In this document: positions 36,001 through 42,000 of the stretch, one piece after another | Layout: each line of letters begins with the position of its first letter | Position numbering within the stretch: position 1 is the first letter of the stretch | Assembly: GCA_965649295.1 (NCBI GenBank) | Contig: CBFGKH010000006.1 | Location: forward strand, 32,001-96,000 | DNA from: a candidate division WOR-3 bacterium | GTDB lineage: Bacteria > Hydrothermota > Tepidihabitantia > Tepidihabitantales > Tepidihabitantaceae | DNA: 64,000 bases | Direction: 5' to 3' | Program-made: the position numbers

Positions 36001-39000
36001 GCATTCGTCCGGCCAAGCTGCGACAGTGGCAAGAGTTTACCGGCCTTGACCGGCACTAGCTTCCAAACCAGTTGACAGTAGCGCCGACTAGAGAATAATG
36101 GCGGGATAGCAGAAATCCGAAGCAGGGCTTCGGACGCCAGACTGGACGACTGCTGGACAACCTGATGAGGAGAATCGCGTGAGCAAGACTATTGCTGCCT
36201 TACTGCTGCTTGCCCTGCTGGTGCCGACCTTTGCCCAGCCCGCCAGCCCAAATCCGGCGCTCGATGCGGCAGTCCAGGCAATCGAACTGATGAACCGCAA
36301 TCTCGGCCGCTGGTTCGTTATCGTCATTGTTGCCCTGGTGCTGTTTGCCCTCGTGGCTGCATGGCGCATCTGGGGCTACAGCCGGCGGCTGCTGGAGCTA
36401 GGCGAGCTGCGCAGTTCCACCGAACGCCGGCTGGGCGAGCTGACCGATGAACTGCTGCGCCTGCGGACCAAGCTCGTCTCAATCGGCGATCACGTTGACC
36501 GGACCGAGAAGGACATCGCCCTGCTGCGCCCTGAAGCTGCGGCCGACCTGGCAGCCCAGCTCAGTGGACTTGAAGAGGCAATTGCCGGCCTTACCGCACG
36601 GCTTGATACTGAGCTTGGTGAAGTGCGGCGCCAGTTGACCGAACTGGAAGCAAGAATTGCGGCGTTGACTGCGGCTGAGCCGCCCAAGCTCGAGGTTCCG
36701 ATTGAAGTCATGACGGCAACTGCGGCAGCTGAGGCCGCACAAGCCGCAGCAACCCAAGCAGCCCAGCAGGCAGAAGCGGCAGCAACCGAGAGTCGCGAGA
36801 CCGCTGCCCAAGCCCTTGCCGCTGTCCAGCGCCTCGAGGAGGAGTTTAGTAAGCAGCTTACCGAGCTTAGACTGCAACTAGCAGCAGTCCAGCCGCTGCC
36901 AACAGAGCCGGCAGTTGACGAAAGTCGGCAGCCGGCGGACACGGTTTCTGTGCCCCCAGAACCAGTGGCCACGGCGCCAGCCGAGACCGATGACGAAGCA
37001 GCTACTGGCGACGAGCATTTTGGGGCCGGTGAGTATGGCGAGGCCGTTGACTGTTACTCACGCTGGATTGAGAAGAACGAAGCTAACCCTGATCGGAATC
37101 GGCTGCTGGCAGTGCTGCACAACCGCGCGGTCGGTTATCTCCGCCTCGGTCGCTACCTCGATGCGCTGAATGACGCGGCCGCGATTGAACCATTGGTTGA
37201 TGTCTCGCCCAAGGCTGCCGGTGCAGCCCGGATGCTGACCGGCGTTGTCCACCTGTATCAGGGCCTGGTTGACGAGGCGCTTTCCGACTTTGAGCAGGCA
37301 CTGGTCGTGGACCCTTCTGCTCGCAAGACCCTGGCCAAAGACGAAGACATTGCCGCCTGGATCGAACAGAATCCAGCGGAAGCGAGAGTGCTTCAGCGCG
37401 GTCTGGACAGACTGCTGGGTCGCGAGAAACCCACACGAGCAGACCCGACAGCCGAGCGGCCAAAGGTCAAAAGTCAGAAGGCCAAAACCAGACCTGGAAA
37501 GCAACGACGGCGCTAGGCAGTTCTCCGCTGGCGAATGGGCATCTCCCATCCCTTAGCCGTTGCGCTCGTCTCCGGCGGCCTCGACTCAACCCTGGCCGCA
37601 GCCATCGTCAAGCAACAGGGAATCACCGTCGTCGGCATCAACTTCCAGGGCGGCTATTGTCCTGGTCCGTGGGAGGGACTGAGTCGGGCTCAGGTTGCTG
37701 CTGGTCAGATTGGCATCGAACTTGTCACCCTGCCGATTGATGCTGACTTCATCGCCATGGTGAAGAAACCAAAGCACGGTCGGGGCAAGAATATGAACCC
37801 GTGCATTGACTGCCACATTATGATGATTCGCAAGGCTTGGGAATATGGCCGCACCCGCGGGGCAGAGTTCATCGTGACTGGCGAGGTGCTGGGACAGCGA
37901 CCGATGAGTCAGAACCGGCGGTCGCTTGACCTAGTTGCGGCCGAATCAGGAATCGGTGACAGACTGGTGCGACCACTTTCGGCCCAGCTTCTGGAACCGA
38001 CCTGGCCCGAACGCACCGGACTGCTCGACCGCAACCGACTCTATGACATTCAGGGCCGAACCAGAGACCGGCAGGCTGCACTGGCGCGAGAGTTTGGCAT
38101 CAACGACTATCCGCAGCCGGCCGGCGGCTGCCTGTTGACCGAGAAAGTCTTCTCCGCGCGACTTCGTGAGGCCTTTGCTCACGGCGAGGACTCAGTTTTC
38201 CATATCGAGCTACTGCGCATTGGCCGACATTTTCGTCTCGAATCGGGCAGCCGGGTCGTGCTGGGCCGCAACAAGCAGGAGAACGCCGAGCTTCTATCCC
38301 GGCTACCTGACTCGGCCGCGCTGATTGATGCCACTTCCTTGCCTGGCCCGCTGGCCCTGCTTGTGCCCGACTCCGGCGAGGCCGATCGCCTGCTCGCAGC
38401 GCGACTCTGTGTCGCCTACTCCGACAAGCGCGATGCCGGTGCCCAGCCGGTGAGAATAGCCAGCATGCGCCGATCCGTGACCGAGCTCGCCGCCGACCGC
38501 ATCGTCACCGTCACCGCCCTTGGACCTGATGATATTCGCCGGCTCGCCATCTCCGGCTGAACTGGCTTCGGCCAGAAGCCATTTGACCCCTGCCCGGGCA
38601 GGGCTAGAATGAGGTTTATGAGAAACTGTCTGCTACTCCTGCTCGTGCTGCTGCCGCTACCGGCAACTGCCCGACTCCAGGTCGGACAGACCGCACCAAA
38701 CTTCACCCTGCCCGACACGGCCTGGGTGAACCATCAACTTGTCGAGTTCCGCGGCCAGGTAGTACTGCTCAACTTCTGGGCCTCGACCTGAGGGACCTGC
38801 CGCGCGGAGTTGCCGCGCCTCTCCATCCTTCAGAACGACTACGGCCCCCACGGCTTCGCCGCCATCTCCATCAACCTCAACGAAGATATGATGAACGTTG
38901 TCCGGGTCTATGCCCGGCAGAACTCACACCTCTTTCTCCGCGACCCTGGCACAGTCTGGAGTGTTTACGCCCAGAACAACTATATCCCTTTGAACTACGT

Positions 39001-42000
39001 TCTTGATACTGCCGGCGTAATCCGCTATTGGGAGGAGGGCTTCGACGAAGCCGCCCTGGTGAGCGTGATTCGCCAATACCTGCCTGACCCGATTGACCAC
39101 GATGTTGGGGTGTTGCGTGTCATTGCACCCAGCGGCACGTTCGATTCTGGTGCAGTTGCTGTCCCGGCCTGCTCGGTTTACAACTACGGCGACCGGGTTG
39201 AGAACTATCCGGTACGGCTACAGATTGGCAGTCGTTATGACACGACCGTGCTAGTCACTAACCACCTGCCAGCAACCGGCCGCCGCGTCGAGTTTCCTGC
39301 CTGGACCGCACTCGAACGCGGCCAGCTCACCGTAGCCGCAACAGCCGAACTTGTCGGCGACGACATCGGCAGTAACAATACCGCGACCGGACTGACCATC
39401 GTGAATGTCCGCGACTTTGCCCTGACAGCGATTTTCGCACCACAGGACACGGTTGACTCAGGGACTACTGTCGTTCCCCTAGTCGAAGTACGCAACCTCG
39501 GAACGGTTGCCGATATGGGCCGGGTACGACTGACCATCGGCAGCGACTACGTTGACAGCGTCAATGTACCCCTGCAGCCAGGCCGCTGGGACACGGTTGC
39601 GCTACGAACTTGGACCGCCGGCGCAACTGGAGTCCTGCCCCTGCGCTGCACGCTAATCACCCGGCTTGCTGATATGAACCCCGCCAATAATCTGCTTGAA
39701 CGTACGGTCGTTGTGCTCGGCCTGGGAGTGGCCGAAGAATCCAAGACTATGCTAGAACCGTTCCGTCTAGAGCCAGCCACAAATCCGGCAGCAGGCCACG
39801 TGCTATTTGCCATCACACTACCCAACCCTCAGTATGTGGAAGCAACTCTCTTCGCGGCGAACGGAACACTAATCCGGCGGCTGTGGTCTGGTCCACTGCC
39901 AGCAGGCCAGCACAAACTTCGCTGGGACTGCCGGGACGAAGCCGGCAACAGAGTCGTCCCTGGCCGGTATTTCTGCTGCGCAGTAGTCGGCGACAGAACA
40001 AGGAATACTGGCGTTACAACCACCAGGTAACTATTTCGAACCCGACCGGTTGGGGCGCGGTCTTGCCGCGCCCCAACCCTTTGCCCGGACGCGTGGTTGT
40101 GATAGATTTCACAGTTCAGCGGTCATCATGGTTTTACTTGACAAGCGGTATCTGGACTCCTACAATCTATCCGAGGCTGAGCTTCTGGGAGAGGCGAAAG
40201 CTGACGCTCCTGTGCCGTGGGGCGCAGGGCGTGGGGTGCAGCTAAGCCGCAGAATCGCAATGGAGACCGCGACCTCCCGAAACACAACCTCACCGGTCTT
40301 TAGCTAAAGACATACCGGAAGCGGTTCCGGTGGAGACAAGTGCCGTTAGCTTTGGCGGCACGTGAGGCTAAACTAAGGAGGCAGTATGAACCGCAACAAA
40401 CCGCTAGTGCTCGCAGCGGTTGCGCTGCTGATGGCGTTCTTCGCTGTCGGCTGCGACAGGCTGTGGAACGATCAGCCTGGCAAGACCAATGCAGCGTGGC
40501 ACTGGGTACCTGGTGGGCCGGCATATGTTGATTGGATGATGTCAGGAAGCTCAATCATCGGTCAGGTCAAAATTGAGCGGCCGACAGGTCCGCAACTCAA
40601 TGCCGGGTTCCAGATGTTCGGTACCCGGAAGATGACCAAGACCCATGTCCACGTCGCGACTTCGGCAATCGGCATTCCCTCCAACGTGAATAACTGGCAG
40701 TACAAGGTGACGCACAACCCGGCTAAGACCCAGTACACGCAGCCAGTCGCCTGGCAGTCGGCCTGGGACGGAGCCAACAAGCTGTACGTCGGCATGTACG
40801 CCCAGTTCACCGGTGGCGGGGACTGCAGCACGTGGAAGCAGATCTACACTTGGACGGTCACCATCCCGTACAAGGACGTTGACCTGCCCTACCACATCGT
40901 CACCTTCTTCGGCCAGCACCCGAACGGAACCTACAGCTACTGGAAGTTCAAGTTCAGTGGCATCGGGCCCGGATATGACGTTGTGGACGGTCAGTGGTAT
41001 GCTGGCTGGTGCATGGAGCAAACTCACTACATGAACCAGAACCAGAACTACCTGGCGGTACTCTGGTCAACGCTTGAGGCCCGTCTGCCCATCCGTCTGC
41101 AGAATGCCGGCTGGGACAATGTCAACTACCTGCTCAACAACAAGCATCCGAACGCGACGCTCTGGGACATCCAGGCCGCAATCTGGTACCTGCTGGGCAA
41201 CGGTGGCTATCCGTCGGACCCTGAGGCTCAGGCAATGGTGGCAGACGCCCTTGCCAACGGCGACGGGTTCAAGCCTTCGGGCGGTCAGTTGCTCGCGGTT
41301 GCTCTCGAACCGATCTGCGAACGGCAGGTAGTGTTCATTGAGCTCGATCCGTGATGCGAGCATAAGCACTAACACAGAAGCGCAGGGGGGCGGAGACGCC
41401 CTCCTGCAGTTTTTGCCGGCGGTTCATATGTGCTGCCGGCGGCCCCCCCCATTACTCCGGCACCGACAATCCCATTCGACCAGGCTGTGCTGAACCACCA
41501 ACGGTGACCAGCTTGACCCTGACTGACCCACAAACTAGCATATACTGTCTGTTCCTACGCAATCCAGGAGGACCCTTGAGTCGTTTCGTTCTATTACTCT
41601 GCGTCGGAATCACCTTGGCGCTAGCTGGTGAGTTCCTTGGCCTTGTGCCTGCTGCCCGGCCAGATGAAATTGCCGGCAACTACCGTGTGGTTGGTCAGAC
41701 TGCCAATGGCGTACTCGTCATCGGCAACACCGCTAGTGAGAGAGATTTTGCCAACCGCGCCGGCCGCTACCTTGCCGTTGACCTAAAGGAGCACGAGTTC
41801 TATCGTGTCCGGTTGATTGAACCGGCGGCACGACCTGCCCTCGCCGCGGTCAGTCGCATTCTCGACTTCGATGGCAACGAGTATCTCGTCCAAATCAGGC
41901 CAAGCGAGGTCGAGAAGCTGATGAACCTGCCGGCTGAGCTTGCTCGCCTCAATCTCCGCGGCTGGGTCTTTACCGACAAACATCCGCAACTGCCTCGCGT

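What a model noticed while it worked through the whole genome (the two positions that open the first line are those of the whole stretch)
38609..40030. TlpA/ResA-like thiol-disulfide oxidoreductase with UGTC centre fused to a T9SS sorting domain
g01179 (60 aa, AhpC-TSA) and g01180 (406 aa, FlgD_ig) are one 473-aa ORF with TGA at codon 61 in the thioredoxin motif W-A-S-T-U-G-T-C; the Cys paralog g01186 has WYRACPWC there. I read it as a Sec-containing TlpA-like reductase that, unlike periplasmic TlpA/ResA, is followed by two CARDB-like domains and a T9SS C-terminal domain and so is displayed outside the outer membrane. New would be the extracellular placement of such a selenoenzyme.
Evidence so far: Calls 17, 19, 24 (U aligned to Cys of g01186, E 2e-11), 46 (translation), 76 (hairpin GCGCGG-AGUUG-CCGCGC 13 nt after UGA).
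(Added by a program. Inside this text positions count along the whole contig: contig position 32,001 is position 1 of the stretch shown here. "Call 12" and the like, gene names such as g00115 and contig names such as C1 are that model's own, and its searches are not shown. The text may have been shortened before it was handed on; [...] marks where a part breaks off. The agent that wrote the report below was given it as the finding of a first reader that could run no searches.)

Follow-up and report, generated by a model that had tools for sequence, protein, structure and literature searches.

The report
Secreted selenocysteine redox enzyme, WOR-3 bacterium
Two "short genes" are really one gene for an exported thioredoxin-like enzyme that has selenocysteine in its active site and carries a tail that probably sends it to the cell surface; the enzyme type is known, but this surface-targeted selenium version is not described in print.

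Summary
Window 38609-40030 (+) is one 473-codon frame with a single in-frame TGA (38789-38791) in the motif W-A-S-T-U-G-T-C.

It is a real selenoprotein gene:
- The genome has selA, selB, two Sec-containing selD and tRNA-Sec.
- 28 long-form orthologous loci in 27 genomes of one family carry TGA (26) or Cys (2) at this codon. Database names point to candidate division WOR-3.
- A 6-bp hairpin with an AGUUR loop starts 10 nt after the UGA. It is paired in all 150 cells of 25 distinct Sec-form rows, and two of its six pairs show compensatory double changes. It decays in the Cys forms.

Architecture: signal peptide, TlpA/ResA-like thioredoxin domain, two CARDB-like Ig domains, and a C-terminal Ig-like sorting domain.

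Export through a T9SS-like route is inferred, not shown:
- For: the same tail ends 23 other open frames, and SprA, PorU-like and PorV-like genes are present.
- Against: GldL and GldM were not found, the window's own tail misses TIGR04183, and it lacks the conserved lysine.

Sec-containing TlpA-like enzymes and a thioredoxin-motif T9SS cargo (HBP35) are already known. I class this as a new variant of a known kind. This scan has noted similar T9SS-sorted selenoproteins in other genomes.

The parts
38583..38610 (+). Promoter-like site (TTGACC, 16 nt, TAGAAT) that overlaps the first ATG. It makes the second ATG (38618, preceded by GAGG) an alternative start.
   Evidence: 10 of 12 consensus matches; a pattern match only; sequence.
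38609..38671 (+). Signal peptide, residues 1-21 (MRFMRNC-LLLLLVLLPLP-ATA|RLQ): basic n-region, hydrophobic core, A-x-A cleavage motif. No lipobox.
   Evidence: Read from the translation. Orthologues have the same layout. pLDDT is below 50 for residues 1-9 and 14-19. No signal-peptide predictor was run.
38678..39082 (+). TlpA/ResA/DsbE-like thioredoxin-fold domain, residues 24-158, with active site U61-G-T-C64, Glu67 and Pro69 (CRAELP), and the presumed cis-Pro P127.
   Evidence: Pfam Redoxin 53.4 bits and AhpC-TSA 51.2 bits. Foldseek: ResA 1st9/1su9, TM 0.88-0.90, rmsd 1.6-1.8 A. PDB profile hits: 3hdc 1.1e-19, 3gl3, ResA. Invariant columns.
38789..38791 (+). In-frame TGA read as selenocysteine (codon 61).
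   Evidence: TGA at the same codon in 26 of 28 long-form loci of related genomes, TGC in 2 (codons read).
38802..38818 (+). SECIS hairpin: 6-bp stem GCGCGG/CCGCGC with loop AGUUG, lying inside the codons for R-A-E-L-P-R.
   Evidence: 150 of 150 cells paired in 25 distinct rows; 2 of 6 pairs show compensatory double changes.
39101..39409 (+). CARDB-like Ig domain 1, residues 165-267.
   Evidence: All-beta in the AF2 model, pLDDT above 90. Repeat family with 94 matches in the genome. PF07705 hits 3 of 16 orthologues.
39413..39721 (+). CARDB-like Ig domain 2, residues 269-371.
   Evidence: Profile hit to PDB 3idu/2kl6 over residues 279-371, E about 2e-5.
39761..40027 (+). C-terminal Ig-like sorting-type domain, residues 385-473 (FlgD_ig type), preceded by a low-confidence linker (373-382).
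   Evidence: PF13860, 3.3e-7. Seven-strand sandwich, pLDDT 91.3. VIA: PorU CTD Z 10.9, PorZ CTD Z 9.9. The same domain ends 23 other open frames of the genome.

Best explanation
One gene encodes a 473-residue exported selenoprotein. Shown or strongly supported: during translation the UGA at codon 61 is read as selenocysteine, with SelB and tRNA-Sec recruited by a hairpin 10 nt downstream that lies inside the codons for R-A-E-L-P-R. The product has a cleavable signal peptide, a TlpA/ResA-like thioredoxin domain with a U-G-T-C centre, two CARDB-like Ig domains and a C-terminal Ig-like domain. Inferred: the protein crosses the inner membrane by the Sec pathway and folds in the periplasm. Its C-terminal domain is then recognised by a T9SS-like outer-membrane apparatus (SprA translocon, PorV-like shuttle, PorU-like sortase). 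The redox domain therefore ends up on the cell surface or in the medium, held away from the cell by the two Ig spacers. There the selenolate of U61 attacks disulfides (or polysulfide-type substrates) and C64 resolves the selenenyl-sulfide. This is thiol-disulfide exchange outside the cell. My best guess is that it opens disulfide-bonded extracellular proteins for the peptidases exported by the same route. Environmental thiols or sulfide, not a cellular donor, would recycle the enzyme.
For: One frame, with conservation on both sides of the TGA in 16 aligned orthologues at 46-53% identity, including the invariant W57, C61 (U), C64, A66-E-L-P-R70 and P127.

Sec machinery: selB 345 bits, selA 576 bits, two selD with one TGA each, and tRNA-Sec.

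Survey of 272 genomes of the phylum: 28 long-form loci in 27 genomes, all in family f1, with 26 TGA and 2 Cys.

Hairpin: 150 of 150 cells paired. Pair 14-30 changes G-C to U-A in 3 rows. Pair 17-27 changes C-G to A-U in 2 rows, where Ala becomes Glu and Pro CCG becomes CCU. In the 3 Cys forms, synonymous and other changes break the stem, and the loop also changes in two of them.

Public proteins: 77 of the 82 family hits lack a Redoxin domain and are 287-408 aa. That is what cutting at the TGA would give. Of these 77 I fetched and checked only two, P0006 and P0013, and both begin just after the TGA.

Contigs of two hot-spring metagenome runs (X1, X3) bridge the TGA with 97 and 74 substitutions and no gaps.

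Fold: ResA/DsbE.

Sorting domain:
- It sits at the extreme C-terminus of 23 other open frames.
- 8 of 16 orthologues match TIGR04183.
- 7 of 27 orthologues carry a canonical Por_Secre_tail-like tail at the same place (judged by eye).
- Its fold aligns with the CTDs of PorU and PorZ.
- SprA scores 445.8 bits, over its cut-off. Two full-length PorU-like genes and a PorV-like gene next to one of them are present.
- Neighbouring genes include an M28 peptidase and a Por_Secre_tail protein.
Against: No experiment shows selenium incorporation, secretion or activity.

The window's own tail does not match TIGR04183 or PF18962 at E <= 0.1. It has Gly where 14 of 16 orthologues have the Lys of the last strand. 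A T9SS review calls the conserved lysines of motif E necessary in P. gingivalis (passages of PMC10202324).

PorU-like and PorV-like scores are under their curated cut-offs. GldM and GldL were not found, although the controls for those two searches were silent.

Foldseek ranks generic Ig and FlgD domains above any T9SS CTD, and 68 chains reach Z >= 8 in VIA, so the fold is not diagnostic.

No electron donor outside the cell is known, and no conserved neighbour gene suggests one.

The window's copy sits on a long branch (0.97 against a median of 0.22), so it may be under relaxed constraint.

One database relative has D-P-S-S in place of the redox pair (P0019), which hints that some members work without redox chemistry.
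Confidence: 0.7

Rival explanations
1. It is a periplasmic TlpA/ResA-like selenoprotein. The C-terminal Ig-like domain is just another Ig module, or an anchor to the inner face of the outer membrane, and not a secretion signal. The enzyme is reduced by the CcdA/DsbD-type membrane protein, like ordinary TlpA/ResA.
For: A DsbD_TM/CcdA homologue is present (79.6 bits). The window's tail misses TIGR04183 and PF18962 and lacks the conserved Lys. GldL and GldM were not found. Foldseek ranks FlgD and generic Ig folds first. The active-site context CxxCRAELP is that of periplasmic reductases such as ResA and DsbE.
Against: The tail is confined to the extreme C-terminus of 23 other large open frames. 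In 7 of 27 orthologues it is exchanged for a canonical Por_Secre_tail-like tail. 8 of 16 orthologues match TIGR04183. SprA, PorU-like and PorV-like genes are present. There is no membrane anchor, only a cleavable signal peptide.
Confidence: 0.2
2. It is a surface protein whose thioredoxin module mainly binds something (haem, a metal or metalloid, or a partner protein) rather than turning over as an enzyme, as proposed for the haemin-binding T9SS cargo HBP35.
For: HBP35 combines a thioredoxin-like motif, a CTD and haemin binding (abstract of PMC2907840). One relative has lost both redox residues (P0019, D-P-S-S). No extracellular recycling partner could be identified.
Against: The U/C-x-x-C pair, Glu67 and the cis-Pro position are invariant in 16 of 16 aligned orthologues. 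The costly Sec codon and its hairpin are kept in 26 of 28 loci, which argues for catalysis. HBP35 is not among the best 60 PDB sequence matches.
Confidence: 0.08
3. The TGA is a true stop or a decayed gene: a 60-residue peptide and a separate 406-residue Ig-domain protein, or a pseudogene.
For: Gene callers split it everywhere. The hairpin's energy alone is unremarkable (z -1.79). Rfam gives no match in the window.
Against: The TGA is at the same codon in 26 loci of 27 genomes, with Cys in the others. The frame and residues are conserved on both sides. The hairpin shows compensatory changes. The Sec machinery is complete. The second ORF's TTG 'start' lies inside the conserved thioredoxin fold.
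Confidence: 0.02

Closest known systems
[quoted passage not shown]
   Same: Thioredoxin fold of the Redoxin/AhpC-TSA/TlpA type, U-x-x-C centre, in-ORF bacterial SECIS, Cys homologues. Listed in tables of PMC1088965 (2005; passages), PMC2398784 (2008; passages) and PMC13188914 (2026 review; passages).
   Different: Those catalogues describe the redox domain only. In the 2026 review the words 'secreted', 'periplasm' and 'signal peptide' do not occur. Here the domain is fused to two CARDB-like domains and a C-terminal sorting-type domain. I could not compare sequences with the catalogued members, because their accessions cannot be fetched here.
[quoted passage not shown]
   Same: ResA-like selenoprotein; the window's W-A-x-x-U-G matches the first six letters of the motif.
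   Different: It scores 40 bits against a cut-off of 300, and none of the 16 orthologues does better than E 2.8e-10. The motif here is U-x-x-C, not U-G-C. It is not a member.
ResA (Bacillus subtilis), DsbE/CcmG and TlpA: extracytoplasmic thiol-disulfide reductases of cytochrome maturation
   Same: Fold (TM 0.88-0.90, rmsd 1.6-1.8 A to ResA), the CxxC(R)xE(L)P context, the cis-Pro loop, and export by a signal sequence.
   Different: Those are Cys enzymes tethered to or near the cytoplasmic membrane and reduced by CcdA/DsbD. This one has Sec, no anchor, two Ig spacers and a sorting-type tail. Scores are far below the equivalog cut-offs (ResA 55 against 170, TlpA 43.5 against 230).
HBP35 of Porphyromonas gingivalis (T9SS cargo with a thioredoxin-like motif)
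   Same: A thioredoxin-motif domain followed by a conserved C-terminal domain; found on the cell surface; thioredoxin activity in vitro that depends on the two cysteines (abstract of PMC2907840; T9SS review PMC10202324, passages).
   Different: HBP35 uses Cys, binds haemin, has no CARDB domains, and is not among the best 60 PDB sequence matches of this family's profile. It is an analogue in architecture, not a detectable relative.

Membership tests
Bacterial selenoprotein gene (UGA = Sec with in-ORF SECIS) | In-frame UGA with conserved coding sequence on both sides | tested here: met
   16 orthologues, invariant residues on both sides; two metagenome contigs bridge the TGA with 97 and 74 substitutions and no gaps.
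Bacterial selenoprotein gene (UGA = Sec with in-ORF SECIS) | Cys at the aligned position in homologues | tested here: met
   CGHC in G022 and G014; CPYC in the short form of G013; P0003, P0004, P0005 and P0008.
Bacterial selenoprotein gene (UGA = Sec with in-ORF SECIS) | Hairpin just downstream of the UGA with a small apical loop containing G (criterion as worded in PMC1088965) | tested here: met
   6-bp stem, loop AGUUR, 16 nt between the UGA and the loop. 150 of 150 cells paired and 2 pairs covary. No Rfam family matched.
Bacterial selenoprotein gene (UGA = Sec with in-ORF SECIS) | selA, selB, selD and tRNA-Sec in the genome | tested here: met
   all over their cut-offs; tRNA-Sec found at C5:88305-88399.
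Bacterial selenoprotein gene (UGA = Sec with in-ORF SECIS) | Selenium actually incorporated in the protein | not testable with these tools
   Needs 75Se labelling or mass spectrometry.
TlpA/ResA/DsbE-like thiol-disulfide oxidoreductases (Pfam Redoxin/AhpC-TSA) | Sequence match over the Pfam gathering score | tested here: met
   Redoxin 53.4 bits against 26.6; AhpC-TSA 51.2 against 26; 16 of 16 orthologues match.
TlpA/ResA/DsbE-like thiol-disulfide oxidoreductases (Pfam Redoxin/AhpC-TSA) | Thioredoxin fold with the CxxC at the start of helix 1 and a cis-Pro loop | tested here: met
   Helix 62-81 starts right after residue 61. ResA TM 0.88-0.90. P127 is invariant. The cis conformation itself is inferred.
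TlpA/ResA/DsbE-like thiol-disulfide oxidoreductases (Pfam Redoxin/AhpC-TSA) | Membership of a named equivalog (ResA, TlpA, DsbE, WAxxUGC_long) | tested here: not met
   All are far under their curated cut-offs (55 against 170, 43.5 against 230, 36 against 123, 40 against 300).
T9SS cargo with type A C-terminal domain | N-terminal Sec signal peptide | tested here: inconclusive
   Read by eye and from the orthologues. No predictor was available.
T9SS cargo with type A C-terminal domain | Match of the last 70-90 residues to TIGR04183 / PF18962 | tested here: inconclusive
   The window's own protein has no match at E <= 0.1, only FlgD_ig. 8 of 16 orthologues match TIGR04183, best 1.3e-6.
T9SS cargo with type A C-terminal domain | Ig-like seven-strand sandwich at the extreme C-terminus, shared by many exported proteins of the genome | tested here: met
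   (PorU CTD Z 10.9, PorZ CTD Z 9.9, but 68 chains reach Z >= 8); 23 of 23 other hits lie at the end of their open frames.
T9SS cargo with type A C-terminal domain | Conserved Lys in the last strand (motif E) | tested here: not met
   Gly in the window's protein; Lys in 14 and Arg in 1 of the other 15 aligned orthologues. No frameshift explains it.
T9SS cargo with type A C-terminal domain | T9SS machinery in the genome | tested here: inconclusive
   SprA is over its cut-off. Two PorU-like genes (369 and 340 bits against 420) and a PorV-like gene (87 against 250) are under theirs. GldM and GldL were not found, with silent controls.
CARDB domain (PF07705) | Sequence match to the family | tested here: inconclusive
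   No hit for the window's protein. 3 of 16 orthologues hit, best 3.4e-4. The profile hits 3idu and 2kl6 at about 2e-5. That these two entries are CARDB domains is recalled; the table calls them 'uncharacterized protein'.

The most novel reading that the evidence does not exclude
FCB-group bacteria, here a WOR-3 family related to strains found in hot-spring metagenomes, export selenoenzymes beyond the outer membrane. These are surface-displayed U-x-x-C oxidoreductases that work without any cellular electron donor. They would be recycled by environmental sulfide or thiols and would prepare disulfide-locked or sulfur-rich extracellular substrates for uptake. If so, they would be the first bacterial selenoproteins known to act outside the cell envelope, and selenium would have a role in extracellular nutrient acquisition.
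Probability: 0.3. Interest if true: 0.7.

Novelty: new variant of a known kind. Interest (0 to 1): 0.5.

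Why it matters
Every bacterial selenoprotein studied so far acts in the cytoplasm or periplasm (my recollection; not checked in a paper here). 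A selenoenzyme displayed on the cell surface raises a concrete question that can be tested: how is a redox centre recycled where there is no cellular reductant? It would also tie selenium supply to extracellular substrate processing in uncultured FCB lineages.

There is a practical point too. In the protein collection searched, 77 of the family's 82 clusters lack the Redoxin domain and are 287-408 aa, as cutting at the UGA would give; the two of these that I fetched begin just after the TGA. The redox domain is therefore invisible to annotation-based surveys.

The hairpin lies inside the conserved R-A-E-L-P-R codons. It shows clearly an RNA constraint laid over a protein constraint: the Cys forms keep the peptide but lose the stem.

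Tried and rejected
- Coordinates read as contig positions (window 6609-8030): that place is an SMC-like gene, not the finding.
- Rfam at gathering threshold over the whole window: 0 matches.
- Synteny: the window's four neighbours have no tblastn match in the flanks (about 1.5 kb) of 27 orthologous loci. Clustering of flank ORFs finds shared neighbours only within close genera, at most 6 loci. No conserved partner gene emerged.
- Frameshift at the 3' end to explain the odd last strand: none.
- Foldseek with the tail alone: no T9SS CTD among the 50 rows shown.
- GldM (TIGR03517) and GldL (TIGR03513): not found with these queries, but the control genomes did not ring either.
- Expression: no RNA holder listed.
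- Reads: only contigs of four hot-spring metagenome runs from two studies could be laid. None of the 40 differences listed lies between 38734 and 38898, but 93 more were not shown.
- Earlier findings by place (near) and by sequence: nothing.
- Literature, full-text library only: 'selenoprotein' + 'WOR-3' gave 0 papers. 'WOR-3' + 'T9SS' gave 0. 'selenocysteine' + 'type IX secretion' gave 1, and its passages treat the two terms separately. 'selenoprotein' + 'T9SS' gave 3 counted and 2 listed, each term occurring once; I saw titles and abstracts only.
- Survey gap: four further long open frames (436-697 aa) with weaker matches in another family (f39) were not examined.
- No complex prediction was run.

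Full report
**Observation**

The finding's coordinates are window coordinates. ORF 38609..38791 (60 aa) and ORF 38810..40030 (406 aa) share one frame. Reading TGA as U gives one 473-residue product with U61 in NFWASTUGTCRAELPRL. The TGA is at 38789-38791. The hairpin GCGCGG/AGTTG/CCGCGC occupies 38802-38818, 10 nt after the TGA. By itself its energy is unremarkable (z -1.79). TGA is a normal stop in this genome, ending 430 of 1149 open frames of 300 codons or more. A promoter-like site overlaps the first ATG, so the second ATG (38618, after GAGG) may be the real start. This does not affect anything below.

**It is a selenoprotein gene**

- The 2.28-Mb genome (19 contigs) has selB (345 bits), selA (576 bits, on the same contig), two selD genes each with one in-frame TGA, and a tRNA-Sec.
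- A six-frame search of 40 related genomes found full-length matches with one TGA in 13 genomes and no stop in 2.
- A survey of 272 genomes of the phylum with residues 1-165 found 28 long-form loci (open frames of 453-582 aa) in 27 genomes, all in the window's family f1. 26 have one TGA and 2 have none.
- In the loci I extracted, the TGA always stands at the first active-site position. Variants are UPTC (most common), UPYC, UPQC, UPSC, UPEC, UAQC, UALC, UGSC, UGGC and, in the window, UGTC. The two stop-free forms have CGHC.
- Sixteen aligned orthologues are 46-53% identical to the window's protein. Invariant residues lie on both sides of the TGA: W57, U/C61, C64, A66-E-L-P-R70 and P127.
- Contigs of two hot-spring metagenome runs bridge the whole gene with 97 and 74 substitutions and no gaps.

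**SECIS**

The stem lies inside the codons for R-A-E-L-P-R. In 27 Sec-form rows (25 distinct) every one of 150 cells pairs. Two of the six pairs show changes on both sides:
- G-C to U-A in three rows, where Arg becomes Leu on the 5' side.
- C-G to A-U in two rows, where Ala GCG becomes Glu GAG and Pro CCG becomes CCU.

No shuffle reached the observed covariation score, and shifted registers pair in only 20-63% of cells. The loop is A-G-U-U-R in all rows. The three Cys forms keep the peptide (RAELPR, or RAELPH in one) but use CGT, CTG/CCA, or GCA/GAA/CTG/CCC/CAT codons that break the stem, and in two of them also change the loop. A small apical loop containing G is the feature named for bacterial SECIS elements in PMC1088965 (passages). 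The spacing rule of 16-37 nt between the UGA and the loop is from my memory of the bSECISearch paper and was not checked here.

**Architecture**

An AlphaFold2 model built on 106 sequences has mean pLDDT 90.1:
- disordered signal peptide (1-21; A-T-A then R, read by eye);
- thioredoxin fold (24-158), with helix 62-81 starting right after U61;
- two beta-sandwich domains (165-267 and 269-371);
- a low-confidence linker (373-382);
- a seven-strand sandwich (385-472).

The first domain superposes on ResA (TM 0.88-0.90, rmsd 1.6-1.8 A) and on DsbE of Chlorobium tepidum (28-29% identity). The family profile hits 3hdc, 3gl3 and ResA at 1e-15 to 1e-19. Pfam Redoxin and AhpC-TSA are over threshold. 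The NCBIfam equivalogs ResA, TlpA, DsbE and WAxxUGC_long are far under theirs.

The middle domains belong to a repeat with 94 matches in this genome, mostly in very large proteins. CARDB is matched by 3 of 16 orthologues, and the profile hits PDB 3idu and 2kl6.

**Is the tail a sorting signal?**

For:
- tblastn with the last 91 residues finds 23 other places in the genome. In all 23 the match ends exactly where the open frame ends, allowing for the unaligned query residues.
- 8 of 16 orthologues match TIGR04183, and 12 of 16 match FlgD_ig.
- 7 of 27 long-form orthologues carry a shorter, canonical-looking Por_Secre_tail at the same position (by eye). The two tail types therefore replace each other in otherwise orthologous proteins.
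- The tail folded alone (pLDDT 91.3) aligns with the CTDs of PorU (Z 10.9), PorZ (Z 9.9) and mirolase (Z 8.8).
- The genome has SprA (445.8 bits, over its cut-off), two full-length PorU-like genes and a PorV-like gene beside one of them.
- Neighbouring genes encode an M28 peptidase and a Por_Secre_tail protein.

Against:
- The window's own tail does not reach TIGR04183 or PF18962.
- Foldseek ranks FlgD and generic Ig folds first, and 68 chains reach Z >= 8.
- PorU-like and PorV-like scores are below their cut-offs.
- GldM and GldL were not found, though with silent controls.
- The window's last strand has Gly where 14 of 16 orthologues have Lys. No frameshift accounts for this.

I did not test it. 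It may mean that this phylum drives CTD export differently.

**Distribution and annotation**

Names attached to database hits place the family in candidate division WOR-3. Of the family's 82 protein clusters (P0002-P0083), only 5 have a Redoxin domain on record: four Cys forms and one D-P-S-S form. The other 77 are 287-408 aa, named 'hypothetical' or 'FlgD immunoglobulin-like domain containing' where named at all, and the two of them I fetched begin just after the TGA.

Most genomes of family f1 also carry a short form (about 256-280 aa: thioredoxin domain plus tail), mostly with TGA. Short forms occur in four other families of the phylum as well. The window's genome has only the long form.

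On a maximum-likelihood tree the two CGHC forms branch successively at the base of a well-supported clade of eight whose other members have Sec. The Sec/Cys state therefore changed more than once. The window's protein sits on the longest branch, 0.97 against a median of 0.22.

Sec-containing TlpA-like genes without such a tail occur in Acidobacteriota and Gemmatimonadota records.

**Mechanism**

Shown by comparison: Sec decoding, the fold, the domain order, and the terminal position of the tail.

Inferred: Sec-pathway export, periplasmic folding, passage through SprA, surface attachment or release, and thiol-disulfide exchange by U61/C64.

The direction of the chemistry is open. U-P-T-C resembles the C-P-T-C of CcmG-type reductases. 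The Cys forms carry C-G-H-C, the motif of protein disulfide isomerase. Both of those comparisons are recalled, not tested here. A His beside the Cys may compensate for the loss of the low-pKa selenol. I favour reduction or reshuffling of extracellular disulfides to help the co-exported peptidases, recycled by environmental thiols or sulfide. This is a hypothesis without direct support: no conserved neighbour gene points to a partner.

**Comparison and novelty**

U-x-x-C selenoproteins of the TlpA/Redoxin type are in the catalogues of 2005, 2008 and 2026 (passages only). HBP35 of P. gingivalis is a thioredoxin-motif, surface-located T9SS cargo with thioredoxin activity in vitro (abstract; review passages).

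I found no paper that links selenoproteins with T9SS cargo or with WOR-3. That covers the full-text library only; subscription journals and supplements were not seen.

This scan has noted T9SS-sorted thioredoxin-fold selenoproteins on other DNA at least six times, in lineages its notes label Marinimicrobia, Zixibacteria-like, Delongbacteria and Bacteroidota. The present family, with two CARDB-like spacers and confined to one WOR-3 family, was not among them by sequence.

**Verdict**

This is a sound, mis-annotated selenoprotein and a new variant of a known kind. Its extracellular location is plausible but unproven.

Noticed in passing
window 47653-49005 (-): A 450-aa protein with a C-terminal TlpA-like Cys domain (FWYRACPWC; Redoxin 5.7e-16 over residues 313-433). 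Its N-terminal ~300 residues match no Pfam family.
   Followed up: partly
window 41504-44173 (+) and 44239-46065 (-): Two large exported proteins next to the finding: an M28 peptidase whose end looks like a sorting tail, and a DUF4082 protein with Por_Secre_tail (2.3e-7). The region is rich in likely CTD cargo.
   Followed up: partly
window 39170-39172, 39338-39340 and 39647-39649 (residues 188, 244 and 347): Orthologues keep Cys188 and Cys244 in the first Ig domain, at positions that suggest a disulfide, and an invariant unpaired Cys347 at the equivalent place in the second. The window's protein has Ala at 244, which leaves Cys188 without its likely partner.
   Followed up: no
P0019 (database relative, 464 aa): A full-length relative with D-P-S-S in place of U/C-x-x-C, so both redox residues are lost, yet the rest of the architecture and a Por_Secre_tail are kept.
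   Followed up: no
window 38786-38821: In hot-spring metagenome contigs, several otherwise unlike records match only this ~32-35-nt piece (TGA plus hairpin) and diverge on both sides. The element appears to be shared by diverged homologues in the same communities (tables 7 and 8).
   Followed up: no
G000:C6:27219-30440 (just before the window) and G000:C9:70389-75006: Two full-length PorU-like sortase genes (340 and 369 bits; cut-off 420). The one on C9 is followed by a PorV-like barrel gene. GldL and GldM were not found, so the export apparatus of this phylum may differ from the Bacteroidota T9SS.
   Followed up: partly
window 37535-38560 (+): The upstream gene encodes a PP-loop ATPase (ThiI / tRNA_Me_trans HUP domain) fused to an NFACT-R_2 RNA-binding domain. 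It ends with TGA 48 nt before the finding's ATG.
   Followed up: no
G257 and G258 (family f39), e.g. G257:C6:120565-124428: Clusters of several thioredoxin-domain genes with one TGA each, some in open frames of 436-697 aa, in another family of the same phylum. These may be further fusion architectures.
   Followed up: no
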